Shown here piece after piece: positions 1 through 13,145 of a DNA stretch of 64,000 nucleotides. The notes beneath the pieces are model-generated. The model worked only from the letters and a program-made list of their open reading frames with translations, was not told where the DNA came from and searched no databases. The translations under genes were made by a program, and so were the position numbers. This DNA is from Actinomycetota bacterium. GTDB taxonomy: Bacteria > Actinomycetota > Geothermincolia > Fen-727 > JAQUKT01. Position 1 is the first letter of the stretch. Every line of letters starts with the position of its first letter. The stretch is from the NCBI GenBank assembly GCA_028718945.1, contig JAQUKT010000002.1:7874-71873 (forward strand), given 5' to 3'.

Positions 1-156
1 GGAATAAGCTCACAAAAAAACAACGTCCTTGAAACGCTGGACCTTCTTTTCCTCTAAGAAGCCTAACAAGACAATCTTCCTCAGAAGTACAAACAACCTT
101 ACTAATTATACCACCGTTTTTGATGATATTTCAGGTCCAATCGAAAACAGCTCGCA

Positions 157-615: not shown

Positions 616-792
616 CCGACTCCTCTGACTTCATCCCAACTTCCACCACAATAGATATTCTCAAGTAGAAACCCTTCTCCCTTCTATCAAGCCAGAACAC
701 ACCTCCCAAAAATCAACCATGAAAAAAGGACTCTTGAGAGTCCCTTCTTCCTCTTTGCCCCATGCTGTAATATGCGGCTTTTGTTCTTACGT

Positions 793-1887
793 CTAACGCA
801 ATCTCACTGGCATCAAAACGTATTTGAATTTGTCGCTCTCCTCCCCCTTGATCAAAGCCGGCTTTTGCGGCTCCTCGAGATAAATCAAAACATTCTCTCC
901 ATCCACGGCCCCTATCCCCTCGACAAGATATGAGCCGTTAAAACCAACTACAATTCCATCTCCTTCAACCGAAGCCGGTATGACCTCACTTGAATTACCA
1001 ACCTCAGGAGTCTCCGCCATGATTGATAGCCTGTCTTCTCCCACTTCAACCCTTAAATTGTGACCAAAAATAATCGCTCTCTTTATCGCTTGAAGTGCCG
1101 CCTCCTTTTGAATATTTACAACCGTCTTGCCTCCCGAAGGAACCAACTGTTTGTAGTTCGGAAACTGACCTTCTATTAGTCTCGTGGAGACAACAGTTTC
1201 ATCAAGGGAAAAAACAGCAACTTTCCCAATTGTTTTTAGTTGAACATCAACGTTAGAAGCGCCACAAATCCTTGACACTTCACTCAATGCCCTTGATGGA
1301 ACAATCGAGTCATCCCATGCTGCCATGCTTCCATCGACCTTTATCTCTCGCATAGAAAGTCTGTAGCTATCCGTCGAAACAAGCCTCATCAAACCTTCTT
1401 GTGAATCCTTCTCCATCAATGTTCCGGTTAGCACAGGCCTTTTTTCATCATTGGAAGACGCTCTTGCTGTCTGTTGGACTCCCCTTGTAAAATCATTTCC
1501 ACTAACTTTCAAAGCTTCTCCTTGGTCCCATTCAGTAACTTGCGGGAAGTCCTCAGGTAACATCTCTCTCAATCTGAATTCTCCAGAAGTGCTCTTTATC
1601 ACTAAATACTTTTCTTCCGTCCTTAATAGAAGCGATTCTCCCTCGACATTCTTCACGATATCACCGATTAACCTTCCGGAAACCACCGTCAAGCCTTCCT
1701 CCTCGATATTTGCCTCACAATTAACCCTTATGCTCATCTCAAGGTCCGTTCCTGCTACTGTTAACTCCTTTCCCTCAGCTCTCATAAGCAGTCCGGTTAG
1801 TACTGGCATTGTGACCCTCGTTGAAACAGCTCTCAGTGAAGTTTGCACTAATCTGTTTAGGTTCTCTCTTGAAACGGAGACAATCAT
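793..1887 (-). CDS. dnaN: DNA polymerase III beta sliding clamp
   Basis: 364-aa ORF immediately downstream of dnaA on the same strand. Three-domain clamp-like length and sequence (LTGLL...GTDLEM...). Canonical dnaA-dnaN synteny. Confidence 0.9.
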   Translation of the reverse strand: MIVSVSRENLNRLVQTSLRAVSTRVTMPVLTGLLMRAEGKELTVAGTDLEMSIRVNCEANIEEEGLTVVSGRLIGDIVKNVEGESLLLRTEEKYLVIKSTSGEFRLREMLPEDFPQVTEWDQGEALKVSGNDFTRGVQQTARASSNDEKRPVLTGTLMEKDSQEGLMRLVSTDSYRLSMREIKVDGSMAAWDDSIVPSRALSEVSRICGASNVDVQLKTIGKVAVFSLDETVVSTRLIEGQFPNYKQLVPSGGKTVVNIQKEAALQAIKRAIIFGHNLRVEVGEDRLSIMAETPEVGNSSEVIPASVEGDGIVVGFNGSYLVEGIGAVDGENVLIYLEEPQKPALIKGEESDKFKYVLMPVRLR

Positions 1888-2266
1888 TTCGCTTCTCCTT
1901 CCTTAATAAGAACAAAGTCAAAAACGGTAGTATTATATCTCAGTTCACTACCTTTTTGATTCAGTATTTCAAGACAAGTGGATTGTAAACATGCGTGAGT
2001 TTTACCGGTGTCGTATTTATAATAATAAGAGTAGTAGTAGTAAGGAACTGTTGAAAAGTGGAAAGAAGCGGAAATAGCTGTAAAAACGTGGTTTGTTGAA
2101 AAAAATCTGCTGGAAAAACTGTTGAAGTTGAGGGATTATTTGAACATCGTGAACCGTGATGTTAGGGAAGTTACACTATAATAGTGGAAATTGTAGACAC
2201 TAAGAACAAGGTTTCCACAGGCACATCCACATTTGTGGCTATTTAAAGAGTGAAGGTTAGCCTTGG
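1888..2266. promoter_or_regulatory. dnaA-dnaN intergenic region with degenerate DnaA boxes and an AT-rich stretch (possible second origin half)
   Basis: GTTTCCACA at 2212-2220, CATCCACAT at 2224-2232 and TGTGGCTAT at 2235-2243. AT-rich 'tatttataataataagagtagtagtagtaagg' at about 2016-2045. Confidence 0.35.
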
Positions 2267-3706
2267 TCAGCCGCCACAGATTGATCTGTTGACCGTGTTC
2301 GTGAGTTCGCTAACCTCTTTCAGGGTGTCCCTGCTGCTCCTTAGGAGGGACTCAACTTTATGACAGGAATGGAGTACTGTACTATGGTCCCTCCCCCCGA
2401 ATTGCGAACCTATTGATATGAGCGTCTCATTAGTGAGCTCCCTGGAGAGGTACATGGCAATCTGCCGACCATAAACCAGGGATCTTGATCTGCTTTGTCC
2501 AGTAAGGTCCGCAACCGGGAGCCTGTAGTAATTCGAGACAACGCTCTGGATTAATTCTACAGTGGCAGATTTAGATGGGTTCTGCTCTGCGAACTGGTCC
2601 TTCAGGACCTCCTGAGCCATGGGCAAGTCAATCTTCAGCCCATATAATCTGGCGTAGGCAACGACGATATTCATATGACCCTCGAGAGTTCTGATATTGT
2701 CCTTGACCATGGAGGCAATGAACACCAAGACATCATCTGGTATATCAATACTTTCGGCACGAGCCCTCATTCTGAGTATTGCAAGTCTCGTTTCAAGGTC
2801 GGGGGGCTTGATGTCAATGATGAGCCCACCTTCGAATCTCGATTGTATCCTGTCCGAAAGCTGTGCCATATCTCTTGGTGGCCGATCACTCGACAGAACG
2901 ATATGGCTATCAGAGCCATATAGAACGTTGAAGATGTCGAAGAATTTGGTTTGTGTAGCGTCTGTTCCCGAGAGTGCCTGAATATCATCAAAAAGCACTA
3001 TTTTGTTGTTGATGTACTTCTTGTCAAAGGTAGCTTTATCTCTCTTGAGGGTTATGGTAACAACAAACTCATCTATAAACTCCGAGGTTCGGACATAGCG
3101 GACTTTGATGTTTGGATGAAGCTTCTCAGCGTAGTCTTTGATGGCATAAAGGAGATGCGTCTTGCCAAGCCCAGTTCCTCCGTAGATGAAAAGGGGGTTG
3201 TAATTACGACCGGGCATTTCTGAGACCATGAGGGAGGCATTGTATGCAAACTTGTTTGAATCTCCTACGACGAAATTTTCGAAGGTGTACTTTTTTATCT
3301 GGGGAATTTCGGCGATTACCTTTCCTCCCTTGCCTTCATTGTTTGATTCGAGGTACGGCTTGGTTACGAACTGGTCGTTTTTTTCATCAATTTCAGCCGG
3401 GTTCTGGGTTTCTGACTGTGGAAGGATGACCAGCGAGACTGAAACTTCTCTCTTGAGGACAGAGGATGCAGCATGCCTGATCGGCTCAAGATAGCTTGAT
3501 TCTATGAGCTCGCGAGTGAAGGAGTTTGGCACACCGAGAGTAATACTTCCGTTTTCTATGGAGATGGGCTTCAACTGTGACAGAACCGACATAAGGATCG
3601 AAGAAGGTATCAGCCCGCTAAGATCCTTGAGGATCCCTTCCCAAGCGTTATCAATGGAGGAAGTTGTTTGACATACGCTTGATTCGTAACGTTCATCCAT
3701 CTTCAT
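2267..3706 (-). CDS. dnaA: chromosomal replication initiator DnaA
   Basis: 479-aa ORF with AAA+ Walker A 'GGTGLGKTHLL', sensor motifs and a C-terminal DnaA DNA-binding domain ('...VLHSCHKVESLL...'). Diverges from rpmH. Confidence 0.95.
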   Translation of the reverse strand: MKMDERYESSVCQTTSSIDNAWEGILKDLSGLIPSSILMSVLSQLKPISIENGSITLGVPNSFTRELIESSYLEPIRHAASSVLKREVSVSLVILPQSETQNPAEIDEKNDQFVTKPYLESNNEGKGGKVIAEIPQIKKYTFENFVVGDSNKFAYNASLMVSEMPGRNYNPLFIYGGTGLGKTHLLYAIKDYAEKLHPNIKVRYVRTSEFIDEFVVTITLKRDKATFDKKYINNKIVLFDDIQALSGTDATQTKFFDIFNVLYGSDSHIVLSSDRPPRDMAQLSDRIQSRFEGGLIIDIKPPDLETRLAILRMRARAESIDIPDDVLVFIASMVKDNIRTLEGHMNIVVAYARLYGLKIDLPMAQEVLKDQFAEQNPSKSATVELIQSVVSNYYRLPVADLTGQSRSRSLVYGRQIAMYLSRELTNETLISIGSQFGGRDHSTVLHSCHKVESLLRSSRDTLKEVSELTNTVNRSICGG

Positions 3707-3739
3707 ATCCCCCGGTTCGTTGGAGTGATGAGAGCAATT

Positions 3740-4060
3740 AAATTTCTTGTGGAATTTACATTAGCGTGTTTTAAGGAGTTTTCCACAATATTGTTATTAA
3801 CCGAGAGCCTAAAAATCCTCATCTCGTTCCCCCCTGAGACTCAGAAAAAGTTTGTCAATACATCTCCTGCAGTAATCCACAAGGTTTTCCACACTTGTGG
3901 AAAAGCTGCCAAAGAGAACTTAAGCCCCGGGATTTCTCCCATGGGCTTCGGTGGGATTATAGCAACGCATATGGGGGGAGGCAATAATGTTTGAAACAAA
4001 AGTTGATTAAATTATTTTATTAGTTCGATAAGCATATGTTGTAATTGGTGCGCACGGATG
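3740..4060. promoter_or_regulatory. candidate oriC / dnaA autoregulatory region: five DnaA boxes plus an AT-rich unwinding element
   Basis: TGTGGAATT at 3748-3756, TTTTCCACA at 3779-3787, TAATCCACA at 3873-3881, TTTTCCACA at 3885-3893 and TGTGGAAAA at 3897-3905. AT-rich 'aataatgtttgaaacaaaagttgattaaattattttattagttcgataagcatatgttgtaatt' at about 3984-4050. Confidence 0.6.
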
Positions 4061-4141
4061 GTCAAGGAAGATCGTGCCGGGGCACAGGGCGACTGCGGCA
4101 GAAAAGAGGAGTTGGCTTGAAGTACTACGTAGCAGCGCTTC

Positions 4142-4169
4142 TTGACACGAGATTACACCAAAGTATAAT
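4142..4169 (+). promoter_or_regulatory. sigma70-type promoter for rpmH operon (TTGACA-16-TATAAT)
   Basis: TTGACA at 4142-4147, 16-nt spacer, TATAAT at 4164-4169, about 47 nt upstream of the rpmH start. Confidence 0.6.
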
Positions 4170-4215
4170 TACTTAATCCGATGGCTACAGCTTAAGACAG
4201 TCTAAGGGTGGAGCA

Positions 4216-4350
4216 TTGAAGAGAACTTACCAGCCAAAAGTCAGGAAAAGAAAGAGAAAGCACGGTTTCAGGAAGAGAATGAGCACGGAGTCTGGTAGAG
4301 CAATACTAAAGAGAAGGCGTGAAAAAGGAAGAGTTAGGCTTACGATTTGA
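4216..4350 (+). CDS. rpmH: 50S ribosomal protein L34 (TTG start)
   Basis: Translation [44 protein letters not shown] (44 aa) matches the universal L34 sequence. It is not in the ORF track because it is under 60 aa. Confidence 0.9.
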
Positions 4351-4351
4351 T

Positions 4352-4711
4352 TTGGCGGGAGCGAGTCCTAACCTTCTGTGGTTGAGAAAGAGACATGCGC
4401 CCTTCGAAGCCAGAAAAAATCTGCGGGCATCGAAAGGCAAATATGCTGATGTCCGGTTCGGAAGATACTGCTGCAGCGCTTCCCAGGACGGGGTATTTGC
4501 GAGTGTTGAAGCCCACGGATTTCGGCGCGCGGTTGACCGGAACTTGGCGAAAAGGAGAGCCAAGGGTTGCCTGTACGATTTGAGGGACTTCTTGAAACCG
4601 GGAAATCTTTATATAGTTATATGTAGGCCTGGATCGGAGGCAATGGATTACCAGGTATTGGTAAATGATATCAAGAAAGCGATTTCGGAATCCGAGAGAT
4701 TCGGGAAGTGA
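4352..4711 (+). CDS. rnpA: ribonuclease P protein component (start uncertain: TTG 4352 or 4382; track gives ATG 4319 overlapping rpmH)
   Basis: Immediately follows rpmH. Basic protein with RnpA-like 'LRKRHAPFEARKNLRASKGKYADVRFGRY...RRAVDRNLAKRRAKG' motifs. Conserved rpmH-rnpA-yidD-yidC-jag order. Confidence 0.75.
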   Translation: MAGASPNLLWLRKRHAPFEARKNLRASKGKYADVRFGRYCCSASQDGVFASVEAHGFRRAVDRNLAKRRAKGCLYDLRDFLKPGNLYIVICRPGSEAMDYQVLVNDIKKAISESERFGK

Positions 4712-4937
4712 ATCCCGTTTCCATATCTGGATTGTTTGGCTTTTCCTTCTCCCAATCCGATTCTACAGATTGTTTGTTTCCCCAAACCTGAAGCCAAGGT
4801 GCAGGTTTTACCCGAGTTGTTCGGAGTATTTTGAGATCGCAGTCAGAAAATATGGTGTTTTGAGGGGAGCCGGGAAGGGTATGTGGAGGATATTGCGTTG
4901 CAACCCGCTTGGTGGTTCGGGTTACGATCCGCCATGA
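4665..4937 (+). CDS. yidD: membrane protein insertion efficiency factor YidD
   Basis: 90-aa ORF with the YidD signature 'IRFYRLFVSPNLKPRCRFYPSCSEYFEIAVRKYGVLRG...RILRCNP'. Overlaps the rnpA 3' end as is usual. Confidence 0.8.
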   Translation: MISRKRFRNPRDSGSESRFHIWIVWLFLLPIRFYRLFVSPNLKPRCRFYPSCSEYFEIAVRKYGVLRGAGKGMWRILRCNPLGGSGYDPP

Positions 4938-4990
4938 TGCGTTGTCGGACATGGCTATTTTAAGAAAAGGTTGCTTGGCGGTGATGTTAA

Positions 4991-5977
4991 TTGATTTCGT
5001 CAATAATCCCGGGGCTCGACGTGCTTTCCAAGGGAATAGCATACGTGCTCTGGGGATGCAATAAGATTACGGGGAACTTTGGTTTGGCAATAGTGTTGGT
5101 AACGCTTGGCATACGAGCGATACTCCTTCCACTGACGATCAAGCAAACGAAGTCCATGATACAGATGCAGAAGATACAGCCTAAGTTGAAGGAGGTTCAG
5201 AAGAAACACAAGGATGACCGCGAAAAGATGGGTCAGGAGATGATGAAACTCTATAAGGAGCATAATGTGAGTCCATTAGGTGGTTGTCTACCTCTCATTC
5301 TGCAACTCCCCATTATCTTTGCTGTTTTTGAGGTGTTGAGGGCTCCATTGAATTTCAAGAGTATCATAGGGGAACCGAATTTGATGTTCATAGGCGTTGA
5401 CGTTACAAAAGCGGGGAGTTTTGCTTGGCAACATGGACATTACTGGCAATTTATTCTGTTCGCAGTTCTAACCATAGTGACAGGATACGTTTCTTCAAAG
5501 CAGATGCTGACCGACCCAAAACAGTCAAAGATGATGCTAATGATGCCTTTACTGATGGGTGTTTTTGCATGGACTCTTCCAATTGGCGTGACGGTATATA
5601 TTGTGGCGACGAATGTTTTCACGATTGCTCAGCAATTCCTGCAACTCGAAATCGAAGGGTTTTATAAGGAGAGAATTGAGAAATTGAGGAGACAAACCGA
5701 GCCTGATGGCAGGGTAGACAGGTTTGTGTTTAGGTTTAGGACGTTGCTGGACAGACTGCTCGTTTGGATGAAAATAAGGAAGCCGCCAAAAAGAACGATG
5801 CCGGCAGAAAAGGATGTTGGGAAGAAAGATAAAGGGAAAGCAACAAGCAAGGGAGGCTCTTTAGGGAAGACCGATAAAGTGCGTAAAGAAGCGGAGGGTG
5901 TAAGTAAGGTTGGGGAAATTAAACGGCAATCCCAAAAGGGAAAAGGGGGAAGTCGAAATAAAAGGAGAAAGAAATGA
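4991..5977 (+). CDS. yidC: membrane protein insertase YidC (short Gram-positive-like form with Lys-rich C-terminal tail)
   Basis: 328 aa with multiple TM segments and conserved YidC/Oxa1 core residues. C-terminal tail 'KKDKGKATSKGG...RNKRRKK'. ATGA overlap with jag. Confidence 0.85.
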   Translation: MISSIIPGLDVLSKGIAYVLWGCNKITGNFGLAIVLVTLGIRAILLPLTIKQTKSMIQMQKIQPKLKEVQKKHKDDREKMGQEMMKLYKEHNVSPLGGCLPLILQLPIIFAVFEVLRAPLNFKSIIGEPNLMFIGVDVTKAGSFAWQHGHYWQFILFAVLTIVTGYVSSKQMLTDPKQSKMMLMMPLLMGVFAWTLPIGVTVYIVATNVFTIAQQFLQLEIEGFYKERIEKLRRQTEPDGRVDRFVFRFRTLLDRLLVWMKIRKPPKRTMPAEKDVGKKDKGKATSKGGSLGKTDKVRKEAEGVSKVGEIKRQSQKGKGGSRNKRRKK

Positions 5978-6651
5978 GAAGTGATTCACGAGATTACTCA
6001 GGGAAGACTGTTGAGGAAGCGGTGCAAACAGCTCTCGAGGAGCTTGGCGTGCGGAGAGAGGATGTAAGTATAGAGATTGTCGAGGAACCACAAAAAAGCT
6101 TCTTTGGAATAGGCGGGAAGGAAGCAAGAATTAGAGTGGAATTGATTCAGGGAGAAGAGAGCGGTGGGAGCGATAAAGAGAGCCCGGCTGAGCAAATACT
6201 TGGTACTCCGGATGAGATTTTGCGAAAAATAATTGAGATATTTGAATTTGATGCGGTTATTGATTCGAAGGAGACTCTGGATGAGACAAGCTTGGAGGTC
6301 TGGGGTGATAATCTTGCACTGCTTATTGGAAAAGGTGGTTCTACCCTGGACGCGCTGGACTTTCTGGTTAACGTGTGTGCACGGAAGAGAGGCGTGAGAA
6401 AGAGGGTAACAGTTGACATAGAGGGTTACCGAAAAAGAAGAAATTCAAGAATTGAGAAGGAAGCAATAGAGTTAGCAAAAAGGGCACTCGCTGAGGGGAA
6501 AACCTTAGAGATGCCCGCAACGGGTTCAGCAAACAGGAGAATTGCCCATATAGCAATTCGTTCTGTTGAAGGGGTGTGGTCTGAGAGTGTCGGGGAAGAG
6601 CCACAAAGGAGGGTTGTTGTTCATCCGAAAAATGAAAAAAGTTTCACGTGA
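5974..6651 (+). CDS. jag: Jag/KhpB RNA-binding protein (KH + R3H domains)
   Basis: 225 aa. KH-like N-terminal region and a C-terminal R3H domain ('GYRKRRNSRIEKEAIELAKRALAEGKTLEMPATGSANRRIAHIAI'). Conserved position after yidC. Confidence 0.85.
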   Translation: MRSDSRDYSGKTVEEAVQTALEELGVRREDVSIEIVEEPQKSFFGIGGKEARIRVELIQGEESGGSDKESPAEQILGTPDEILRKIIEIFEFDAVIDSKETLDETSLEVWGDNLALLIGKGGSTLDALDFLVNVCARKRGVRKRVTVDIEGYRKRRNSRIEKEAIELAKRALAEGKTLEMPATGSANRRIAHIAIRSVEGVWSESVGEEPQRRVVVHPKNEKSFT

Positions 6652-6654
6652 AAC
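6641..6654. repeat. perfect 14-bp palindrome GTTTCACGTGAAAC, copy 1 (overlaps jag stop codon)
   Basis: Exact self-complementary 14-mer. An identical copy lies at 7170-7183. The two copies bracket an ORF-free region. Confidence 0.8.
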
Positions 6655-7053
6655 AAAGACCTTCCGATTGGAATCAGTTGCTTGGTATTGGGCGAATAGG
6701 GCATCTTGCCTAAAAATTTGAGTTGGAGCAACTCCCCGGTTGATTTCAAATAGCCTAAACCTCGACCTTAGATTCTAAGTCAATATTGTGTTTATGTACA
6801 TATGCTTACGTATATTTCGAGAACGAGTTCTGATGTTTCGAGCCGGAATATAAAATTTGTCGGAAATGGGGCCAAGAATTTTACAGGTGCCCTTACCTTA
6901 GATTCTGGAGATATGGGGATATTCAAGGAGATGGGTCAAGTAATTCGATTGTCCCGACCGAAGTATAGTGGTTTTAGTTGAGATACTTGGTTAAAGACTT
7001 TCAAGAATTAGAAGGTTGAGATTTGCGCTCCTAAAGATGGATATTGGTTTTTT

Positions 7054-7130
7054 TGTGGAAAATTGACGAAATCGGCAGGATTTCTTTTCATATTAGGGCG
7101 ACTTTTCAACAAAGTGTGTTTTTTTCCACA
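7054..7130. promoter_or_regulatory. pair of perfect DnaA boxes (TTTTCCACA) in inverted orientation in jag-rsmG gap
   Basis: TGTGGAAAA at 7054-7062 (bottom-strand box) and TTTTCCACA at 7122-7130. This matches the box variant used three times upstream of dnaA. Confidence 0.5.
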
Positions 7131-7169
7131 AAATTTGTTGATAAACGTGGCGTGAGAGTGGATGTTGCA

Positions 7170-7183
7170 GTTTCACGTGAAAC
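7170..7183. repeat. perfect 14-bp palindrome GTTTCACGTGAAAC, copy 2
   Basis: Identical to the 6641-6654 copy, 529 bp away. Confidence 0.8.
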
Positions 7184-7384
7184 ATGAATCTAAGCCGATT
7201 TAATTTTTCTTGAATGATAAATTGATAAGGACCGGATAAGAGGATTGTCTTGATGTAGTATGTTCTATCTGATAGTACAGGTTAAAAAATGGAAGAGATA
7301 ATGTGAATAAGAGAGAAGGGAATGACGAGGGATCAAAGAACGAAGTTGGCAAGATTTACCAATATTAGCTGAGGGCAGCTTGTT

Positions 7385-8068
7385 GTGGTGGGGGTAAATA
7401 AATTGGCACACGAGCTGATCGCGAGGATAGCAATGAGCTATGGGTTCGAGGAAACTGAAAAGTGTGTGGAAATGGTAGAAAGGTACGTTCACATATTGAA
7501 GACTGATAACAAATGGGGGAAGTTGGTTTCTGAGAATGTGCTCAAGCAGCCGGATTTGTTCTTAGAGCCAGCTCTTGGTGTTTTTAGCTTCCTCTCTCCG
7601 GGTGGGAGGAGGAAGGTTGGGGACTTGGGAAGTGGGGCGGGGGTAGTTGGAATAATGGTTGCTATGCTCTGTGCCGATTGGGAGGTAAGCCTTATTGAGG
7701 CGTCGGCGAAAAAATGTGCTTTTCTGGCGGAGACAATAGGGAAGATGGGGCTTACGAACGCCAAGGTTGTCGCGGGAAGGGCAGAAGTAGTGGACAAAAA
7801 AGATTGTGTGGATGTGGTAATTTCTCGCAGTTTGGGTAGAATATCGAAAGTCGCACCAATTGTTGCGAATCTTCTTCGAGAGGGGGGCTATTATATAGCA
7901 ATTAAGGGCAGGGACCCGGCTCGCGAGGTGGAGGAATCCCTGAAGGACATAAACAGCGCTGGGATGTCGCTCTATCGGATCTTGGTTCCGAGCCATTATA
8001 GGAAGCTACAAATAGAGCCCAGGTCATCGCTCGTGGTGCTCAAGAAATCTAACTATTGCGAGAATTGA
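7385..8068 (+). CDS. rsmG: 16S rRNA (guanine527-N7)-methyltransferase RsmG (GidB)
   Basis: 227 aa with SAM-binding 'VGDLGSGAGVVGI' and an RsmG-like N-terminal region. Lies upstream of parAB as in many bacteria. Confidence 0.9.
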   Translation: MVGVNKLAHELIARIAMSYGFEETEKCVEMVERYVHILKTDNKWGKLVSENVLKQPDLFLEPALGVFSFLSPGGRRKVGDLGSGAGVVGIMVAMLCADWEVSLIEASAKKCAFLAETIGKMGLTNAKVVAGRAEVVDKKDCVDVVISRSLGRISKVAPIVANLLREGGYYIAIKGRDPAREVEESLKDINSAGMSLYRILVPSHYRKLQIEPRSSLVVLKKSNYCEN

Positions 8069-8120
8069 AGGGATTGACAAGCCCTTGAGAGAATGAGGGA
8101 ATCTCTGTTGAGGGAGGGCA

Positions 8121-8903
8121 ATGAGGACGATTGCGATAGCGAATCAGAAAGGTGGAGTCGGGAAGACAACGACCGCAATAAACTTGAGTACTGCGCTCGC
8201 AATACTTGGCATGAGGGTGCTCATGGTTGATATGGACCCGCAGGGGAATGCAACAAGCGGGGTTGGAATAGGAAGAAGTGAGATCGGGGAGTGCGTCTAT
8301 GACGTCATTATGAACGGCTTGGATCCCGGGGGGGCCATAAAGAACGGGCCGGTGGACGGCATGAGGGTTCTTCCTTCAACGCTTGACCTTGCGGCGGCTG
8401 AGATAGAGCTTGCGGCGGAGCTTTCAAGGGAAAACCGCTTGAAGAGCGCTCTTGAGAAAGTCGAGAAGGATTACGAGTACATAATAATCGACTGTCCGCC
8501 GTCACTGAGCTTGCTGACCGTGAACAGCCTCACTGCGGCACGTGAGGCAATCGTTCCTATTCAGTGCGAGTTTTACGCTCTTGAGGGTCTCGTTTACCTC
8601 ATGACAACGATGCGAAGGATAAAAACTCATCTTAACCATGAACTAAGAATAACGGGTATTCTACTGACCATGTTCGATGTCAGGACAAATCTTTCCCGGG
8701 AAGTGGAAAAGGAAACAAGGCGGGTGTATCCGGAATTGACCTTGAGGACGGTCATCCCGCGCACTGTAAGGCTCTCGGAAGCCCCGGGCTTCGGGAAGCC
8801 GATTGCTCTCTATGAGCCGAAATCCAAGGGTGCCAAGGCTTACATGGAACTTGCGAAGGAAGTGATGGACTGTGGCCAGGAAGGGTCTGGGAAAGGGACT
8901 TGA
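8121..8903 (+). CDS. parA: chromosome partitioning ATPase ParA/Soj
   Basis: 260 aa with deviant Walker A 'KGGVGKTTTAINL' and ParA family motifs. Confidence 0.9.
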   Translation: MRTIAIANQKGGVGKTTTAINLSTALAILGMRVLMVDMDPQGNATSGVGIGRSEIGECVYDVIMNGLDPGGAIKNGPVDGMRVLPSTLDLAAAEIELAAELSRENRLKSALEKVEKDYEYIIIDCPPSLSLLTVNSLTAAREAIVPIQCEFYALEGLVYLMTTMRRIKTHLNHELRITGILLTMFDVRTNLSREVEKETRRVYPELTLRTVIPRTVRLSEAPGFGKPIALYEPKSKGAKAYMELAKEVMDCGQEGSGKGT

Positions 8904-9750
8904 TGCAATTATTGGATCTGCCGCGAATACTGAGGGGCAGAGGCTCTTAGAGGTGCCGGTGGCGGACATCAAACCCAACCCCGGCCAGCCGCGAACCAGA
9001 TTTGATAGAGAGTCAATTGAGGGGATGGCTCGGTCGATAAAAGCTTTCGGGGTCCTTCAGCCGGTGATCCTCAGGCCAGTTGGAACGGAGTATGAGCTGA
9101 TTGCCGGTGAACGGAGGTGGCTTGCTGCAAAGGAAGCGGGGTTAGAAAGAATACCAGCCATAGTGAGAGAGTCATCGGAGACAGGTTCACTTGAAATTGC
9201 ACTGATTGAGAATATCCACAGGGATGGGCTAAATGGAATAGAGCAGGCGCATGCGTATCAACGCTTGCTGGATGACTTTGGCATTACGCACGAGGAACTT
9301 TCCGGAAGGCTCGGGAAAAGCAGGGTATCGATATCAAACACAATGAGATTGCTTAAACTGCCTTTGGAAGTCCAGGACTACATTATGAATGGGGAAATCA
9401 CCGAGGGGCATGCTCGGGCGATTCTACAGGTGGAGGGCGACGAAGCACGGAAAAATCTTGCGAGAAGGGTCGTAAAAGAGGGTCTGTCGGTAAGGGAGAC
9501 TGAGATTTATGCCGGAAAGTTAGAGAATGCTGCTCTTGATGCTGGGGCCGAGAAGAGAAAGAAGGGTACAGTTCCAGTTGAGGTTTCGAGCATATTGAGG
9601 AGACTCGAGGAGATTCTCGATACACGGGTCAGAGCAAGCTTTGGGAAGAAGAAAGGCAGAGTGATTGTTGAAGTAAAGGATATTGGTGATCTCAAAAGGA
9701 TAGCCGATATTGTCGAATCCGGCGTGGCTGACACGGAACGCTTCAGGTAG
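8872..9750 (+). CDS. parB: chromosome partitioning protein ParB/Spo0J
   Basis: 292 aa with N-terminal 'GLGKGLDAIIG' and ParB box 'GERRWLAAKEAG' plus an HTH region. Overlaps the parA 3' end. Confidence 0.9.
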   Translation: MARKGLGKGLDAIIGSAANTEGQRLLEVPVADIKPNPGQPRTRFDRESIEGMARSIKAFGVLQPVILRPVGTEYELIAGERRWLAAKEAGLERIPAIVRESSETGSLEIALIENIHRDGLNGIEQAHAYQRLLDDFGITHEELSGRLGKSRVSISNTMRLLKLPLEVQDYIMNGEITEGHARAILQVEGDEARKNLARRVVKEGLSVRETEIYAGKLENAALDAGAEKRKKGTVPVEVSSILRRLEEILDTRVRASFGKKKGRVIVEVKDIGDLKRIADIVESGVADTERFR

Positions 9751-9815
9751 CCTTCGTAGTTTGGTAGCCTTTCCTTAGATAGTCCCTCCGCGAAATCGGC
9801 GCGTCTTGATTAGCA

Positions 9816-10754
9816 TTACTCCCCAAGAGCCAAGCGGACGAGTCTTTCAACGAGATCCCCGAAGGAAATGCCGGCTGCCTCAGCAGCGATTGGTAGCAAA
9901 CTGGTCTCAGTCATGCCGGGGCTTACATTCAATTCCAGAACGTAAGGAACACTGTCTTTGCCCACGATAATATCGACTCTTGATATGTCTTTACAGCCAA
10001 GGAGTTTGTGAGCCTCGAGTGCCATCCTCTCAGCTTCTTTGAGCACCTTCTCTTCGAGCCTTGCTGGGACGAAATACTCTGTTTTGCCCGGAGTGTACCT
10101 GGAGTCGAAATCGAAGAATCCCGATTCTGGGACTATTTCGACTGGCGGAAGGACAGAGAGGTCCTGATCGCCGATAACACTGACTGCGATTTCGCATCCA
10201 TCGATAAACTCTTCAATGAGAACCTTGTCATCGTAGCCAAGAGCGGAAAGAATTGCGCTTGCCATGTCGCTTTTGTTGGATACTATACTGAGGCCGAGTG
10301 CAGAGCCCTGGGCAGAAGGCTTGACGACGAGTCGGGGACCTAACTTCCCCCAAATTGGATCGAGTAGTTTTGCCGCTCCCATACCCTCAAACGTCGGCGC
10401 GCTGAGGGCATAGTATCTTGGCGTGGGTATTCCATGCCTCTTGAACAACTCCTTTGAAAGTATTTTGTTGAAGCCAATGATGCTTGACAGGGGCCCCGGA
10501 CCAGTGAAGGGAATTCCCATCAATTCGAGAAGTTCCTGAATAGTCCCGTCCTCTCCATATTTACCGTGCAGTGCGATGTATACGAGGTCGGGTTTCTGTT
10601 CAAGGAGGGTGGGGACCAGTAATTCGTTGACATCTATTTCTAACACAGAGAAGCCTCTACCCCTTAAAGCCTGTGCCACTCTTCTTCCGGATTTGAGCGA
10701 TACGCTCCTTTCAAGCGAGCGACCACCCATCAGTACTGCTATTTTTGACTTCAT
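9816..10754 (-). CDS. ddl: D-alanine--D-alanine ligase
   Basis: 312 aa with ATP-grasp fold. N-terminal 'IAVLMGGRSLERSVSLKSG' and C-terminal 'LELNVSPGMTETSLLP' are typical of Ddl. Confidence 0.9.
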   Translation of the reverse strand: MKSKIAVLMGGRSLERSVSLKSGRRVAQALRGRGFSVLEIDVNELLVPTLLEQKPDLVYIALHGKYGEDGTIQELLELMGIPFTGPGPLSSIIGFNKILSKELFKRHGIPTPRYYALSAPTFEGMGAAKLLDPIWGKLGPRLVVKPSAQGSALGLSIVSNKSDMASAILSALGYDDKVLIEEFIDGCEIAVSVIGDQDLSVLPPVEIVPESGFFDFDSRYTPGKTEYFVPARLEEKVLKEAERMALEAHKLLGCKDISRVDIIVGKDSVPYVLELNVSPGMTETSLLPIAAEAAGISFGDLVERLVRLALGE

Positions 10755-10771
10755 GCGATTTCCTCCTTTGG

Positions 10772-12019
10772 TCAGTGGCTATTGTTGAGCCCTAACGAGT
10801 GATAAAGGCTTATCTCCCTTTCTACAACCTTGCCGAGCCTCATGATACCCTCGGATATCTGAGGCTCCGTAGGGAAGCTGAAGTTCAATCTCATCATGTT
10901 TGCCCCGCTGCCATCCGCAAAAAAAGCGACGCCAGGGACGAATGCGACCCCGGATTCGATTGCTAAAGGCAGCATCTTGGTTGTATCAAGGTATTCCGGG
11001 AGTGTAACCCAAATAAACAAACCACCCTCGGGGTTTGTCCAACGGCATTCGCTCGGGAAATGTTTTTCTAATGACCTTATCATGGCATCCTTTCGCGATT
11101 TGTAGATTGGTTTCAGGTTGTTGATGTTCTTCTTCCAAAGGTCACGCGAGATGAGACGCTCTGCGAACATTTGATTTAGGCTGGATGAGCAAAGGTCTGC
11201 GGACTGCTTGAGTATGGCAAGGCGGTCTATTATCGGAAGAGGTGCGTTGACCCACCCGATGCGGATTCCCGGAGAAACTATCTTAGAGAGAGTTCCAAGG
11301 TAAACTACTCGGGTTTTCTCGAGTGCAACTATTGGCAGGAGCGGCTCCCCGTCGAACCTCAGGAGACCGTACGGGTTGTCTTCTATTATCAGGAAGTCAT
11401 ATTCTTCGGCAAGTTCAATAAGCCTTTTTCGCCGGGGTGCGCTCATTGTGACACCCGCCGGGTTGTGAAAGTTGGGGACCACGTAGGCAAACTTGGGCTT
11501 AAGGCCATTTTTGAGTTCTCTTGAAAGAATATCTACATCCATCCCCATGTGGTCTAATGGTATCGTCGTAAAATTTGGCATCGCGGCACGAAAGGCTGAC
11601 AGGGCTCCAACGTATGTTGGACCTTCCACTACGATGCTGTCACTGGGATCTATGAAGATTCTGGCGAGAAGATCGAGCGCTTGCTGGCTTCCTGTTGTGA
11701 TGAGGATGTGGTTTTCTTCTGCCGTTATTCCTTCGGAAGCCATCACTTTAATAAGTGCTCTTTTTAGAGGCATTCTTCCTTCAGTTTCGCAATATTGAAG
11801 TGCCTCAGCGTGGGACTCCTTGAGGACTTGGAGCATGGCGTCGGAGACTTCCCCAGCGGGAAGACTTTCCGTAAATGGTAGCCCGCCAGCAAAAGAGATA
11901 ACATCGCCACGGCCACCAGCACTCATCAGGTCCCTGATTTCTGAAGACCTGAGATGGTGACTCGACGAAGAGTAGAAACTGGCGTACGGGTCGAAAGTTA
12001 TTCCGGAAGACATTCTCAC
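10772..12019 (-). CDS. PLP-dependent aminotransferase, fold-type I (AAT-I / LysN-MocR-like catalytic domain, no HTH)
   Basis: 415 aa. 'ISFAGGLP' N-terminal motif and 'YLGTLSKIVSPGIRIGW' containing the PLP-lysine region. Lies 17 nt upstream of ddl on the same strand. Confidence 0.8.
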   Translation of the reverse strand: MRMSSGITFDPYASFYSSSSHHLRSSEIRDLMSAGGRGDVISFAGGLPFTESLPAGEVSDAMLQVLKESHAEALQYCETEGRMPLKRALIKVMASEGITAEENHILITTGSQQALDLLARIFIDPSDSIVVEGPTYVGALSAFRAAMPNFTTIPLDHMGMDVDILSRELKNGLKPKFAYVVPNFHNPAGVTMSAPRRKRLIELAEEYDFLIIEDNPYGLLRFDGEPLLPIVALEKTRVVYLGTLSKIVSPGIRIGWVNAPLPIIDRLAILKQSADLCSSSLNQMFAERLISRDLWKKNINNLKPIYKSRKDAMIRSLEKHFPSECRWTNPEGGLFIWVTLPEYLDTTKMLPLAIESGVAFVPGVAFFADGSGANMMRLNFSFPTEPQISEGIMRLGKVVEREISLYHSLGLNNSH

Positions 12020-12278: not shown

Positions 12279-13133
12279 TTGGACGAAAAAGAGGCTTTGG
12301 CGCTCTTGAAGAGAAGAATCCTCATTGACCGAGGGTTTGATGTTAGGCAATACAAAGAAAACTATCTGAAGAGAAGGGTTGCCGTCAGAATGAGAGCAAC
12401 AGGCACAGCGAACATGTTTGATTATTTGAGACTCCTCAGGGATGACTCAGGCGAATACTCGAAGTTGTTTGACGAGCTTACCATAAACGGGACCCAGTTT
12501 TTCAGGGACGAGGATGTATATATAAAGCTTAGAGACAAAGTGATTCCCGACATAATAGATAGGAAGAAGGATATATCGGCGAGATCCATAAGGGCCTGGA
12601 GTGTCGGTTGTGCGAGTGGGGAAGAGCCGTATTCTATTGCAATGCTCATTGACTTCCTCCTCGGAAGCGAGATGAACAGTTGGAATGTTAGAATACTCGC
12701 AAGCGATATTGATGAGGGAAGCCTTGAGGCCACAAAGCGAGCAATATACCAGACCTGCGGGGTGTTGAAGGGCATGGACCCCGATAGATACTTCATTGTT
12801 GAGGAGACTGAAAGTGGCAGGGTTTACAGGGTGAGAGATGAGATAAAGCGACACGTCAGGGTAGAGAAGATAGATTTGCTCAAGGAAAACGAAAAAAAGC
12901 ATTTTGACCTCCTGCTTTGCAGGAATGTGCTTATCTATTTTTCGAAAGAGGTTCAAAGGGAAATAGTTTTATCGCTTGCGTCGAGCATGGTCAGAGATGG
13001 CTATCTTGTTCTCGGTAAGTCGGAGACACTTGGTCCCGAGGGATTGTCCATTCTTGAACCCGCTTTTCCACGGGAGAGAATATTCAGACTTGTTGGAGAG
13101 ACTCGAGGTGAGGTTAGCAGGCGGCATTCTTAG
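12279..13133 (+). CDS. cheR: chemotaxis protein methyltransferase CheR (TTG start)
   Basis: 284 aa. N-terminal all-helical domain followed by SAM-MTase 'RAWSVGCASGEEPYSIAM'. First gene of the che operon. Confidence 0.9.
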   Translation: MDEKEALALLKRRILIDRGFDVRQYKENYLKRRVAVRMRATGTANMFDYLRLLRDDSGEYSKLFDELTINGTQFFRDEDVYIKLRDKVIPDIIDRKKDISARSIRAWSVGCASGEEPYSIAMLIDFLLGSEMNSWNVRILASDIDEGSLEATKRAIYQTCGVLKGMDPDRYFIVEETESGRVYRVRDEIKRHVRVEKIDLLKENEKKHFDLLLCRNVLIYFSKEVQREIVLSLASSMVRDGYLVLGKSETLGPEGLSILEPAFPRERIFRLVGETRGEVSRRHS

Positions 13134-13145
13134 ACGGGGGCAGAG

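What the first reader, a model, noticed from the sequence alone, without database searches (positions are those of the whole stretch)
6641..7384. 733-bp ORF-free gap where mnmE-mnmG should be, bracketed by two identical 14-bp palindromes and containing two perfect DnaA boxes
The usual jag-mnmE-mnmG-rsmG order is broken, and jag is followed by 733 bp without any credible ORF.

The gap begins and ends with the same perfect palindrome GTTTCACGTGAAAC, at 6641-6654 (overlapping the jag stop) and 7170-7183. Inside the gap are two perfect TTTTCCACA DnaA boxes on opposite strands (7054-7062 and 7122-7130). This is the same box variant that dominates the dnaA upstream cluster.

This could be the true oriC or a second DnaA-titration/origin element, placed next to the gid genes as in E. 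coli. It could also be a deletion scar whose palindromes are operator sites for an unknown regulator. The region also carries a direct repeat 'ccttagattct' at about 6768 and 6896.
Basis: seen in the sequence. Interest (0 to 1): 0.55.

Follow-up and report, generated by a model that had tools for sequence, protein, structure and literature searches.

The report
Centromere sites beside DnaA-box cluster
The gene-free stretch between jag and rsmG holds the chromosome's two ParB-binding centromere (parS) sites and a conserved cluster of DnaA-binding boxes next to one of them; it is neither the replication origin itself nor a deletion scar, so it is mostly ordinary, with one modestly interesting twist.

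Summary

- **Palindromes:** both are canonical parS centromere sites (AGTTTCACGTGAAACA, 15/16 to TGTTNCACGTGAAACA). A parS-type ParB is encoded 1.7 kb downstream.
- **Missing mnmE/mnmG:** this is normal, because the window is a deep-branching Actinomycetota MAG (near Ca. Geothermincolia) and the phylum lost both genes. No pseudogene remnant is detectable.
- **DnaA boxes:** the two perfect boxes belong to a four-box cluster (7054-7144), the densest in the window, ending 25 bp before parS2.
- **Conservation:** seven relatives found through ParB homology alone (53-64% identity, 44-63% GC) also have a long ORF-free gap upstream of rsmG (0.5-2.6 kb). All seven keep the DnaA-box cluster at fixed spacing from parS2. 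The six that retain jag also keep parS1 at its 3' end. Nothing else in the gap is conserved.
- **Unwinding origin:** it is predicted in the dnaA-dnaN spacer, which has an AT-rich stretch, a TAG-type DnaA-trio run, a 5-bp spacer and tandem boxes. The local GC-skew flip falls there too.

The gap is therefore an origin-proximal centromere plus an auxiliary DnaA-box cluster upstream of rsmG-parAB. The closest parallels are Pseudomonas oriCII, B. subtilis DBC[thdF-jag] and DnaA binding at the Caulobacter centromere. Similar box-parS pairs recur near par genes in several other lineages. Binding and function are inferred, not shown.

The parts
5974..6651 (+). jag (khpB); its last codons and stop are encoded inside parS1
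   Evidence: Pfam Jag_N, KH and R3H. ORF coordinates.
6640..6655 (.). parS1: AGTTTCACGTGAAACA, a predicted ParB nucleation site overlapping the jag stop codon
   Evidence: 15/16 match to TGTTNCACGTGAAACA. The 14-bp core is exact. A parS at the jag 3' end is kept in six relatives in different reading frames or just past the stop.
6656..7053 (.). Non-conserved, ORF-free, AT-enriched spacer between parS1 and the DnaA-box cluster. Contains the private 12-nt direct repeat ACCTTAGATTCT at 6765-6776 and 6895-6906.
   Evidence: No gene call, no Pfam hit, no Rfam hit. Fold z-scores are -0.5 and +0.3. No nucleotide or protein similarity to the gaps of relatives. Repeat; no counterpart in relatives.
7054..7062 (-). 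DnaA box a (TTTTCCACA), 116 bp before parS2
   Evidence: A minus-strand box at -116 to -137 is present in 8 of the 15 loci of this lineage.
7103..7111 (+). DnaA box (TTTTCAACA), an extra box in this genome
7122..7130 (+). DnaA box b (TTTTCCACA), the most conserved box of the module
   Evidence: Invariant columns in alignment A1. Present at -30 to -71 in all 15 loci of this lineage, including all 8 found without using the motif.
7136..7144 (-). DnaA box c (TTATCAACA), head-to-head with box b (14 bp start to start)
   Evidence: A plus/minus box pair 12-14 bp apart start to start occurs in the module in 11 of the 15 loci. The same geometry occurs upstream of dnaA.
7169..7184 (.). parS2: AGTTTCACGTGAAACA, a predicted ParB nucleation site 25 bp after the last DnaA box
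   Evidence: Invariant core in alignment A1.
7185..7384 (+). AT-rich leader or promoter region of rsmG-parA-parB; the promoter is not located
   Evidence: 78% AT at 7189-7228. No convincing sigma-70 match here. Fold z-score +0.3. The corresponding parS2-to-rsmG distance in relatives varies from about 150 to 1200 bp.
7385..9750 (+). rsmG (7385-8068), parA (8121-8903) and parB (8872-9750): the genes served by the region, including the protein predicted to bind the palindromes
   Evidence: Pfam. ParB matches the Caulobacter ParB-parS structure 6T1F at E=1.5e-52, keeps the parS-type residues R and G, and has the GERRW motif.
2020..2065 (+). Context: the predicted real unwinding element in the dnaA-dnaN spacer. 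It reads TAA TAA TAA GAG TAG TAG TAG TAA (DnaA-trios, 2020-2043), spacer GGAAC, box TGTTGAAAA (2049-2057) and a second degenerate box (2057-2065).
   Evidence: It is the only strict TAG-trio array in the 64 kb, and the same array sits in the dnaA-dnaN spacer of relatives. BUS definition from PMC8287927. GC-skew flip at about 2000.
3779..3904 (.). Context: the dnaA-upstream DnaA-box cluster (3779 +, 3885 +, 3896 -), using the same box variant and the same head-to-head pairing

Best explanation
The jag-rsmG gap is the origin-proximal centromere and control region of the rsmG-parA-parB operon in a deep-branching actinobacterium.

**parS sites.** The two 16-bp palindromes are parS sites. ParB is encoded 1.7 kb downstream and carries the CTP-clamp motif and parS-type recognition residues. 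It should nucleate on both sites, which are 529 bp apart, and spread or slide over the gene-free spacer and into rsmG-parAB. That would build the partition complex about 5 kb from the origin.

**DnaA-box cluster.** Four consensus DnaA boxes sit 25-116 bp before parS2. They have no DnaA-trios and no unwinding element, so DnaA bound here cannot open DNA. The cluster is an auxiliary DnaA-binding site that links initiator level to the segregation locus. The box-to-parS2 spacing is fixed within about 10 bp across relatives, whereas the distance to the rsmG start varies about eight-fold. I therefore favour a direct cis interplay at parS2: DnaA acting as a boundary or gate for ParB loading or sliding, or ParB spreading controlling DnaA occupancy. 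DnaA control of rsmG-parAB transcription, as at Pseudomonas oriCII, is the second, compatible function.

**Origin and mnmE/mnmG.** DNA unwinding is predicted in the dnaA-dnaN spacer. mnmE and mnmG are absent because the phylum lacks them.

**Shown versus inferred.** Shown: the identity of the motifs, their statistical excess and their conservation. Inferred: binding by ParB and DnaA, and every functional consequence.
For: **parS identity**
- Both copies match the consensus at 15/16, and they are the only two exact copies in 64 kb.
- The neighbouring ParB has HTH_ParB and ParB_N domains. It aligns to Caulobacter ParB of the ParB-parS co-crystal at E=1.5e-52 with GERRW. It keeps R and G at the two parS-contacting specificity positions (R173 and G201 in ParB; Q and R in Noc).
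- Mycobacteria carry TGTTTCACGTGAAACA upstream of gidB in the same jag-gidB-parA-parB order (PMC2346475).

**Conservation**
- Seven relatives fetched by ParB homology alone (53-64% identity, 44-63% GC) all have a 0.5-2.6 kb ORF-free gap upstream of rsmG.
- The six that retain jag have parS1 at its 3' end, in different reading frames or just past the stop. All seven have a DnaA-box cluster just before parS2.
- Blastn and tblastx find nothing else shared between the gaps.
- Across all 15 loci, box density is 15 per kb in the 200 bp before parS2 against 0.35 per kb elsewhere. Boxes sit at about -125, -55, -42 and -22.
- In alignment A1 the invariant columns fall only in boxes b and c and in parS2.
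- No TTWTC[CA]ACA box lies within 200 bp of parS1 in any of these loci.
- In L008 the upstream gene is not jag, yet the module stays with rsmG-parAB.

**Box statistics in the window**
- 14 matches against 2.3 expected; 9 of the 14 lie in the three origin-region spacers.
- Four boxes in 91 bp were never reached in 500 shuffles.
- DnaA domain IV keeps R399, D433, H434 and H439 in E. coli numbering.

**The origin is elsewhere**
-.

**Precedents**
- P. aeruginosa oriCII is a DnaA-box cluster that activates gidAB-parAB and is dispensable for replication (PMC13438810).
- B. subtilis has DBC[thdF-jag] (PMC3245932).
- DnaA binds the Caulobacter parS region (Mera 2014, via PMC6399470).
- The two-box-plus-parS pattern recurs in 36 species genomes. 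Seven belong to this lineage. Others lie upstream of parA in high-GC Gemmatimonas-like and Clostridia genomes, and in Actinoplanes and related genera.
Against: - There is no binding, expression or replication data for this uncultured organism. Everything rests on motifs and conservation.
- The rsmG promoter could not be located. A promoter sitting right at the module, followed by a leader of variable length, would explain the fixed box-parS spacing without any DnaA-ParB interplay.
- Seven of the 15 loci of this lineage were found with a pattern that contains the motifs, so they cannot count as independent evidence of conservation. The eight loci found without using the motif do count.
- A looping contribution of this cluster to initiation is not excluded.
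- ParB has K at the position equivalent to A184, as Noc does. That position is reported to vary among true ParBs.
- The chance expectation for the genome-wide pattern scan is my own rough estimate (a handful of hits), not a measured control.
Confidence: 0.8

Rival explanations
1. The DnaA-box cluster is purely a transcriptional operator. DnaA activates or represses the rsmG-parAB promoter, as at P. aeruginosa oriCII or the B. subtilis thdF operon, and ParB at parS2 autoregulates the same promoter. The proximity of boxes and parS only reflects two regulators sharing one promoter.
For: - In P. aeruginosa, DnaA boxes upstream of gidAB-parAB raise p1 activity and ParB level.
- In M. bovis BCG, a parS overlaps the -10 element of P1gidB.
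- In L008, where jag is replaced by another gene, the module stays with rsmG-parAB.
- An AT-rich stretch follows parS2.
Against: - No conserved promoter is recognisable around or after parS2.
- The distance from the module to the rsmG start varies from about 150 to 1200 bp, while the box-parS2 spacing is fixed.
- In Actinoplanes the same pair lies about 2.4 kb downstream of parB, not upstream of a par gene.
Confidence: 0.3
2. The cluster is a working part of a multipartite origin. DnaA bound here loops to the clusters flanking dnaA and helps assemble the initiation complex, as the upstream and downstream box clusters do in B. subtilis or H. pylori. Alternatively it serves as a DnaA sink that times initiation, like the B. 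subtilis DBCs or E. coli datA.
For: - It is the densest consensus-box cluster near the origin.
- It uses the same head-to-head box pairing as the dnaA-upstream cluster.
- B. subtilis DBCs near oriC restrain initiation and act synergistically with Spo0J.
- Pseudomonas oriCII can drive plasmid replication.
Against: - The cluster lies 5 kb from the predicted unwinding site and 3.2 kb from the dnaA-upstream boxes.
- A pure sink or looping site would not need a fixed spacing to parS2.
- In L008 the module is apparently separated from the jag side of the region.
Confidence: 0.15
3. The gap is the true origin of replication, where unwinding takes place.
For: - Four consensus DnaA boxes lie in an AT-enriched gene-free region next to a gid gene, as in E. 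coli.
Against: - There is no DnaA-trio array in the gap. The single strict array in 64 kb is at 2032-2043 in the dnaA-dnaN spacer, with the same layout in relatives.
- GC skew flips at about 2000, between the co-oriented dnaN and dnaA, in this genome and in six relatives.
- The gap's most AT-rich 40-mer (78% AT) is well below the window's maximum, 88% AT at 3983-4022 in the rpmH-dnaA spacer.
Confidence: 0.04
4. The gap is a decayed remnant of mnmE-mnmG, and the palindromes are operators for an unknown regulator or a dispersed repeat.
For: - The gap lies where mnmE-mnmG sit in Bacillota and Proteobacteria.
- Gap length varies widely among relatives, from 0.5 to 2.6 kb.
Against: - No Pfam hit in any frame at E<=1.
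- tblastn with Pfam-verified MnmE and MnmG proteins finds nothing below E=0.01 in the window or in 15 related loci.
- Both genes were lost at the root of the phylum.
- The palindrome is the parS consensus, occurs only twice in the window, and has a cognate ParB next door.
Confidence: 0.02

Closest known systems
Mycobacterial jag-gidB-parA-parB locus with parS upstream of gidB (M. tuberculosis, M. bovis BCG, M. smegmatis; PMC2346475)
   Same: Same phylum and same gene order without mnmE/mnmG. Same parS sequence (TGTTTCACGTGAAACA). Two origin-proximal copies, one of them in the jag-gidB spacer.
   Different: In mycobacteria the second copy lies inside parA or the 5' end of gidB, not at the jag stop codon. 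That paper describes no DnaA-box cluster next to parS. I could not examine the mycobacterial sequence here.
Pseudomonas aeruginosa oriCII, the DnaA-box cluster upstream of gidAB-parAB (PMC13438810)
   Same: A cluster of consensus DnaA boxes upstream of the gid-par operon and a few kb from the dnaA-linked origin. It binds DnaA, raises operon expression and ParB level, and is dispensable for chromosome replication.
   Different: In Pseudomonas the parS sites are about 10-20 kb away, and gidA is present. Here the boxes end 25 bp from a parS with conserved spacing. Function here is untested.
Bacillus subtilis DnaA-box cluster DBC[thdF-jag] (PMC3245932, PMC2533591)
   Same: A DnaA-box cluster immediately after jag and ahead of the gid-containing operon. 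It lies outside the unwinding origin and is part of a set of clusters that act synergistically with Spo0J/ParB in controlling initiation.
   Different: It is followed by thdF (mnmE), and I found no report of a parS adjacent to it. The distance between the boxes and any parS was not examined here.
DnaA binding at the Caulobacter crescentus centromere (Mera et al. 2014, as reviewed in PMC6399470)
   Same: DnaA boxes lie inside the parS region. The initiator acts at the centromere separately from its action at the origin.
   Different: Different phylum and a different arrangement. A role in segregation is shown there by experiment and is only conjectured here.
Vibrio cholerae chromosome 2 parS2/rctA region (PMC3688505; PMC6399470)
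   Same: A centromere site lies directly beside initiator-binding sites, with ParB spreading reported to modulate the initiator. It serves as a mechanistic model for a possible cis interplay.
   Different: The initiator there is RctB, not DnaA, and the replicon is plasmid-derived.
Basal unwinding system (BUS) of B. subtilis-type origins (PMC8287927)
   Same: The dnaA-dnaN spacer of this window fits it: tandem boxes, a 5-bp spacer, 3'-GAT-5' trios and an AT-rich stretch.
   Different: It applies to the dnaA-dnaN spacer and not to the flagged gap, which lacks trios.

Membership tests
Chromosomal parS centromere site (ParABS) | 16-bp palindrome matching TGTTNCACGTGAAACA | tested here: met
   Both copies read AGTTTCACGTGAAACA, a 15/16 match with the 14-bp core exact.
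Chromosomal parS centromere site (ParABS) | Cognate chromosomal ParB with an HTH domain, parS-type specificity residues and the CTP-clamp motif | tested here: met
   Pfam ParB_N and HTH_ParB. Aligns to Caulobacter ParB 6T1F at E=1.5e-52. Has GERRW. The residues equivalent to R173/T179/A184/G201 are R/T/K/G; Noc would have Q/K/K/R.
Chromosomal parS centromere site (ParABS) | Few copies, clustered near the origin and the parAB genes | tested here: met
   Only two exact copies in 64 kb. They lie 1.5 kb and 0.9 kb upstream of parA and 4.6-5.1 kb from the predicted unwinding site. The rest of the genome was not available.
Chromosomal parS centromere site (ParABS) | The site is conserved as DNA, independently of coding | tested here: met
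   parS1 is kept at the jag 3' end in six relatives in different frames or just past the stop. parS2 is kept in all 14 related loci.
Chromosomal parS centromere site (ParABS) | ParB binding, spreading and segregation function | not testable with these tools
   Needs ChIP-seq or in vitro binding.
DnaA-box cluster outside the unwinding origin (B. subtilis DBC or Pseudomonas oriCII type) | Three or more consensus 9-mers (TTWTNCACA-like) within about 100-150 bp, beyond chance | tested here: met
   Four TTWTCMACA boxes lie in 91 bp. None of 500 shuffles reaches this. The window total is 14 against 2.3 expected.
DnaA-box cluster outside the unwinding origin (B. subtilis DBC or Pseudomonas oriCII type) | The organism's DnaA has a canonical box-reading domain IV | tested here: met
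   Pfam Bac_DnaA_C. 49% identity to E. coli domain IV. R399, D433, H434 and H439 are kept; T435 is S and P423 is I. The E. coli sequence and contact residues are from my own knowledge.
DnaA-box cluster outside the unwinding origin (B. subtilis DBC or Pseudomonas oriCII type) | Cluster conserved in relatives | tested here: met
   Present at fixed offsets from parS2 in all seven relatives found by ParB homology alone, and in seven further loci found by pattern.
DnaA-box cluster outside the unwinding origin (B. subtilis DBC or Pseudomonas oriCII type) | DnaA binding, with an effect on transcription or initiation timing | not testable with these tools
   Needs EMSA or footprinting, reporter fusions, or deletion in a surrogate host.
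Replication origin, unwinding module (BUS) | DnaA-trio array of at least three NAN trios (3'-GAT-5' preferred) within 16 bp of a DnaA box | tested here: not met
   There is no strict TAG-trio array in the gap. The only one in 64 kb is at 2032-2043 in the dnaA-dnaN spacer, 5 bp from box 2049-2057, and the same holds in relatives. Criteria are from PMC8287927.
Replication origin, unwinding module (BUS) | Adjacent AT-rich unwinding element | tested here: inconclusive
   The gap's best 40-mer is 78% AT (7189-7228). It lies beyond parS2, not next to a box with trios. The window maximum, 88% AT, is at 3983-4022 in the rpmH-dnaA spacer.
Replication origin, unwinding module (BUS) | Strand-composition switch at the site | tested here: not met
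   The cumulative GC-skew minimum is at about 2000. dnaN has skew -0.31 and the co-oriented dnaA has +0.05, and six relatives show the same sign change. Only 2 kb lies to the left of that point and gene-specific composition is a confounder, so this is suggestive only.
mnmE/mnmG pseudogene remnant | Residual protein-level similarity to MnmE or MnmG in the gap | tested here: not met
   No Pfam hit at E<=1 in six frames. tblastn with Pfam-verified MnmE and MnmG finds nothing below E=0.01 in the window or in 15 related loci.

The most novel reading that the evidence does not exclude
The DnaA-box cluster and parS2 form one dedicated cis-acting coupler between replication initiation and chromosome segregation. 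DnaA oligomers assembled 10-25 bp from the ParB loading site would gate or bound ParB loading and sliding. Alternatively, ParB spreading would control how much DnaA this site sequesters. On this reading the module is ancient or repeatedly reinvented. It is fixed in Ca. Geothermincolia-like actinobacteria. Similar two-box-plus-parS arrangements occur near par genes in Actinoplanes relatives, in high-GC Gemmatimonas-like genomes and in Clostridia. They also occur in Treponema and some Gammaproteobacteria MAGs, where the gene context was not determined. A corollary is that a DnaA-box cluster at the head of the gid/par gene block is an old feature. It would have survived the loss of mnmE/mnmG here and could be what gave rise to gidA-linked origins such as E. 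coli oriC.
Probability: 0.25. Interest if true: 0.7.

Novelty: new member of a known kind. Interest (0 to 1): 0.4.

Why it matters
It turns an apparent anomaly into a clear map of the origin region of an uncultured, deep-branching actinobacterial lineage. The unwinding element is at dnaA-dnaN. A two-site centromere brackets a gene-free stretch. An auxiliary DnaA-box cluster sits at the head of rsmG-parAB.

The part worth keeping is the fixed pairing of DnaA boxes with one parS. It persists across genomes that share no other detectable similarity in this region, and it recurs in other lineages. That gives a simple, testable sequence handle on how bacteria tie initiation to segregation. So far this link is documented experimentally only in a few models (Caulobacter, B. 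subtilis, Vibrio, Pseudomonas).

Tried and rejected
- **Non-coding RNA in the gap.** Rfam found nothing credible at E<=1 in window 1-12000 and nothing above gathering score in six related loci. There are no tRNAs. RNA folding of 6655-7045 on both strands and of 7184-7384 is no better than shuffles.
- **Hidden gene or pseudogene.** Gene callers place nothing in the gap. Six-frame Pfam is empty. tblastx between the gaps of relatives gives only two weak hits, which fall on the box/parS module itself. MnmE/MnmG tblastn is negative.
- **Iteron-like role for ACCTTAGATTCT.** The repeat has two copies only. It is absent from relatives, and no analogous private repeats occur in their gaps. I treat it as unexplained and possibly chance.
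- **Promoter and terminator scans.** There are three weak promoter-like hits against 2.2 expected, none conserved, and no terminator after jag. The rsmG promoter stays unlocated.
- **Close relatives through RsmG.** RsmG is too divergent to be useful; the next hit is 44% identical over half its length. ParB worked instead.
- **Literature on a general DnaA-box/parS module.** The search found only the specific cases cited. Its absence from the searched library does not prove that it is undescribed.
- **Weak parS-like sites.** The matches at 28291 and 60337 (2 mismatches each) are within chance expectation and were not pursued.
Full report
**What is in the sequence.**
The window opens with a textbook origin neighbourhood, confirmed by Pfam. 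On the minus strand lie dciA (157-615), dnaN (793-1887) and dnaA (2267-3706). On the plus strand lie rpmH (4216-4350), rnpA, yidC (4991-5977) and jag (5974-6651). After the 733-bp gap come rsmG (7385-8068), parA (8121-8903) and parB (8872-9750).

- GTTTCACGTGAAAC occurs exactly at 6641-6654, overlapping the jag stop codon, and at 7170-7183. It occurs nowhere else in the 64 kb.
- TTTTCCACA lies at 7054-7062 (-) and 7122-7130 (+). The same variant occurs three times upstream of dnaA.
- The gap has no called gene, no Pfam hit in six frames, no Rfam or tRNA hit and no unusual RNA folding.
- The direct repeat is 12 nt, ACCTTAGATTCT, at 6765-6776 and 6895-6906.

**The palindromes are parS.**
Both copies extend to the same 16-mer, AGTTTCACGTGAAACA, which matches the chromosomal parS consensus TGTTNCACGTGAAACA at 15 of 16 positions. 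The ParB encoded 1.7 kb downstream has ParB_N and HTH_ParB domains. It aligns to Caulobacter ParB of the ParB-parS co-crystal at E=1.5e-52, with the GERRW motif. At the four positions that decide parS versus Noc-site specificity (R173, T179, A184 and G201 in Caulobacter ParB; Q, K, K and R in Noc; PMC7383237) it has R, T, K and G. The two DNA-contacting positions are therefore of the ParB type. In mycobacteria the canonical 16-mer TGTTTCACGTGAAACA sits upstream of gidB in the same jag-gidB-parA-parB order (PMC2346475). 'Operators for an unknown regulator' is therefore not needed.

**Why mnmE and mnmG are missing.**
The RsmG and ParB proteins are identical to those of an NCBI MAG labelled 'Actinomycetota bacterium'. 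Named relatives recovered later belong to Candidatus Geothermincolia. MnmE and MnmG are reported as absent only in Actinobacteria, lost at the root of the phylum (PMC6063277). Nothing scored below E=0.01, and nothing credible fell in any gap. The gap is not a recognisable deletion scar.

**Relatives.**
Seven loci were fetched through ParB homologues of 53-64% identity, without any use of the motifs. Their GC content ranges from 44% to 63%. Six show the same gene order. In the seventh (L008) the gene upstream of the gap is not jag. All seven have a long gene-free stretch upstream of rsmG: 529, 1803, 1035, 2589, 902, 1035 and 1811 bp. Blastn between these gaps finds only short matches, all on the motifs, and tblastx finds nothing beyond two weak hits over the same module.

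Two things are kept.
- The six relatives that retain jag have a parS at its 3' end. It sits in different reading frames or just past the stop, so selection acts on the DNA site and not on the protein.
- All seven have a second parS preceded by a cluster of DnaA boxes at stereotyped offsets. A minus-strand box lies about 116-137 bp before it, a plus-strand box about 47-59 bp before it, and minus-strand boxes lie about 34-46 and 20-25 bp before it.

The window fits this layout, with boxes at -116, -67, -48 and -34 relative to parS2.

Across the 15 loci finally assembled, box density is 15 per kb in the 200 bp before parS2 and 0.35 per kb elsewhere. In a MAFFT alignment of the module, the invariant columns fall only in box b, box c and parS2. 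No TTWTC[CA]ACA box lies within 200 bp of parS1 in any locus. In L008 the module still precedes rsmG-parAB. Seven of the 15 loci came from a pattern scan that contained the motifs, so only the eight loci found without it count as independent evidence.

**Statistics in the window.**
TTWTCMACA occurs 14 times against 2.3 expected. Nine of the 14 lie in the three origin-region spacers, which total 1.6 kb. The four boxes in 91 bp of the gap form the densest cluster, a density never reached in 500 shuffles. DnaA domain IV is 49% identical to that of E. coli. It keeps R399, D433, H434 and H439, with T435 changed to S and P423 to I. The E. coli sequence and its contact residues come from my own knowledge.

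**Where the origin opens.**
The dnaA-dnaN spacer reads as follows:
- an AT-rich run;
- TAA TAA TAA GAG TAG TAG TAG TAA (2020-2043);
- the spacer GGAAC;
- the box TGTTGAAAA (2049-2057);
- an overlapping second, degenerate box.

This is the layout of the basal unwinding system: a box, a spacer of at most 16 bp, at least three NAN trios with 3'-GAT-5' preferred, and an AT-rich stretch (PMC8287927). A strict TAG-trio array occurs only once in the 64 kb, at this place. In the relatives that show one, it lies in the dnaA-dnaN spacer and never in a jag-rsmG gap.

Cumulative GC skew has its local minimum at about 2000. dnaN has skew -0.31 and the co-oriented dnaA +0.05, and six relatives show the same sign change. 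This is suggestive only, because the left flank is short and genes differ in composition. The most AT-rich 40-mer of the window (88% AT) is in the rpmH-dnaA spacer, whereas the gap's best is 78% AT at 7189-7228. The gap is therefore not the unwinding site.

**What the cluster most likely does.**
Three experimentally studied systems are close.
- In P. aeruginosa, oriCII is a DnaA-box cluster upstream of gidAB-parAB. It binds DnaA, raises operon expression and ParB level, and is dispensable for replication (PMC13438810).
- In B. subtilis, one of the six DnaA-box clusters outside oriC lies between jag and thdF. Loss of the clusters is synergistic with loss of Spo0J (PMC3245932).
- In Caulobacter, DnaA binds boxes in the parS region and acts on segregation (Mera 2014, via PMC6399470).

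Here the box-to-parS2 spacing is fixed within about 10 bp, while the distance to the rsmG start varies from about 150 to 1200 bp. I therefore lean towards a direct cis interplay between DnaA and ParB at parS2, with transcriptional control of rsmG-parAB as a compatible second role. A contribution to initiation by looping or titration is not excluded. All of this is inference, and no promoter could be located.

**Beyond this lineage.**
A scan of one genome per species for TCCACA-N3-30-TGTTGAWAA-N3-33-GTTYCACGTGRAAC gave 36 loci. My rough estimate of chance co-occurrence next to real parS sites is a handful; it was not measured. The hits break down as follows.
- Seven are from this lineage, with the module between jag and rsmG wherever those genes fall inside the locus.
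- Twelve are Actinoplanes, Paractinoplanes or Winogradskya species. In the one locus spanning both flanks (L011), the module lies between parB and ddl, about 2.4 kb downstream of parB.
- Four are high-GC Gemmatimonas-like genomes, with the module about 100 bp upstream of parA.
- Several are Clostridia, with the module 0.2-2.8 kb upstream of parAB.
- The rest are Treponema and other spirochaetes, three Gammaproteobacteria MAGs and one Bacilli MAG. For these, no par gene was detected in the 8-kb locus.

The pairing of DnaA boxes with a parS is thus not unique to this genome. I found no paper describing it as a general module, which is not proof that none exists.

**Verdict.**
The region consists of two parS sites plus a conserved auxiliary DnaA-box cluster at the head of rsmG-parAB. 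It is a new member of known kinds, and it carries one lead worth testing: the conserved coupling between the boxes and parS2.

Noticed in passing
window 2020-2065 (dnaA-dnaN spacer); same place in L003, L005, L006, L009, L019, L026: A textbook basal unwinding system: an AT-rich run, TAA/TAG trios, a 5-bp spacer and tandem DnaA boxes. It contains the only strict TAG-trio array in the 64 kb and is conserved in relatives. This is the predicted site of origin opening.
   Followed up: yes
L010-L045 (genome contigs pattern scan): The arrangement of two DnaA boxes plus a parS recurs outside this lineage. It is found in 12 Actinoplanes, Paractinoplanes or Winogradskya species, in 4 high-GC Gemmatimonas-like genomes (about 100 bp upstream of parA), in several Clostridia (upstream of parAB), in Treponema and other spirochaetes, and in 3 Gammaproteobacteria MAGs. 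Three unrelated groups share a 16-nt gap between the two boxes.
   Followed up: partly
window 6640-6655 and 7169-7184; L002 7954/8339; L007 7527/8210; L009 6439/7828: Within each genome the two parS copies share the same flanking bases: A...A here, T...A in L002, C...GT in L009 and ...AT in L007. The flanks differ between genomes. This could reflect gene conversion between the copies or co-evolution with each ParB.
   Followed up: no
window 157-615 (-): A DciA-family gene (the ancestral helicase-loader partner) lies immediately beside dnaN. Most relatives have recF between dciA and dnaN, but this genome and L002 do not.
   Followed up: partly
window 3983-4022: The most AT-rich 40-mer of the whole window (88% AT) lies in the rpmH-dnaA spacer, about 80 bp from the dnaA-upstream DnaA boxes. 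It could be the dnaA promoter region or a second easily melted element.
   Followed up: no
window 40910, 46447 and 46938 (all minus strand): Three further perfect TTTTCCACA boxes lie inside coding sequences. One is in a 1002-aa FAD/Fe-S oxidoreductase gene. Two, 491 bp apart, are in an NAD-dependent epimerase gene. They are isolated boxes, not clusters.
   Followed up: partly
window 6765-6776 and 6895-6906: The exact 12-nt direct repeat ACCTTAGATTCT, spaced 130 bp, lies in the non-conserved half of the gap. It has no counterpart or analogous repeat in relatives, so its significance is unclear and it may be chance.
   Followed up: partly
window 12279-14489 and onward; L002, L003, L005, L007, L008, L009: A chemotaxis gene block (cheR, MCP genes, cheW, cheY, cheB, cheA) is conserved just beyond ddl and an aminotransferase gene in the relatives, next to the origin region. 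In the window itself only cheR and one MCP gene were confirmed.
   Followed up: no
window 4665-4937 (+): A 90-aa ORF lies between rnpA and yidC, where relatives have yidD. It was not checked against any family.
   Followed up: no
L003 6678-8480, L006 5907-8495, L009 6436-8246: In some relatives the gene-free gap upstream of rsmG is 1.8-2.6 kb, which is very long for a bacterial intergenic region. No homology, Rfam family or repeat was detected apart from the box/parS motifs. One assembly's gene caller placed an unannotated 168-aa ORF just before rsmG (L004 7974-8480).
   Followed up: partly
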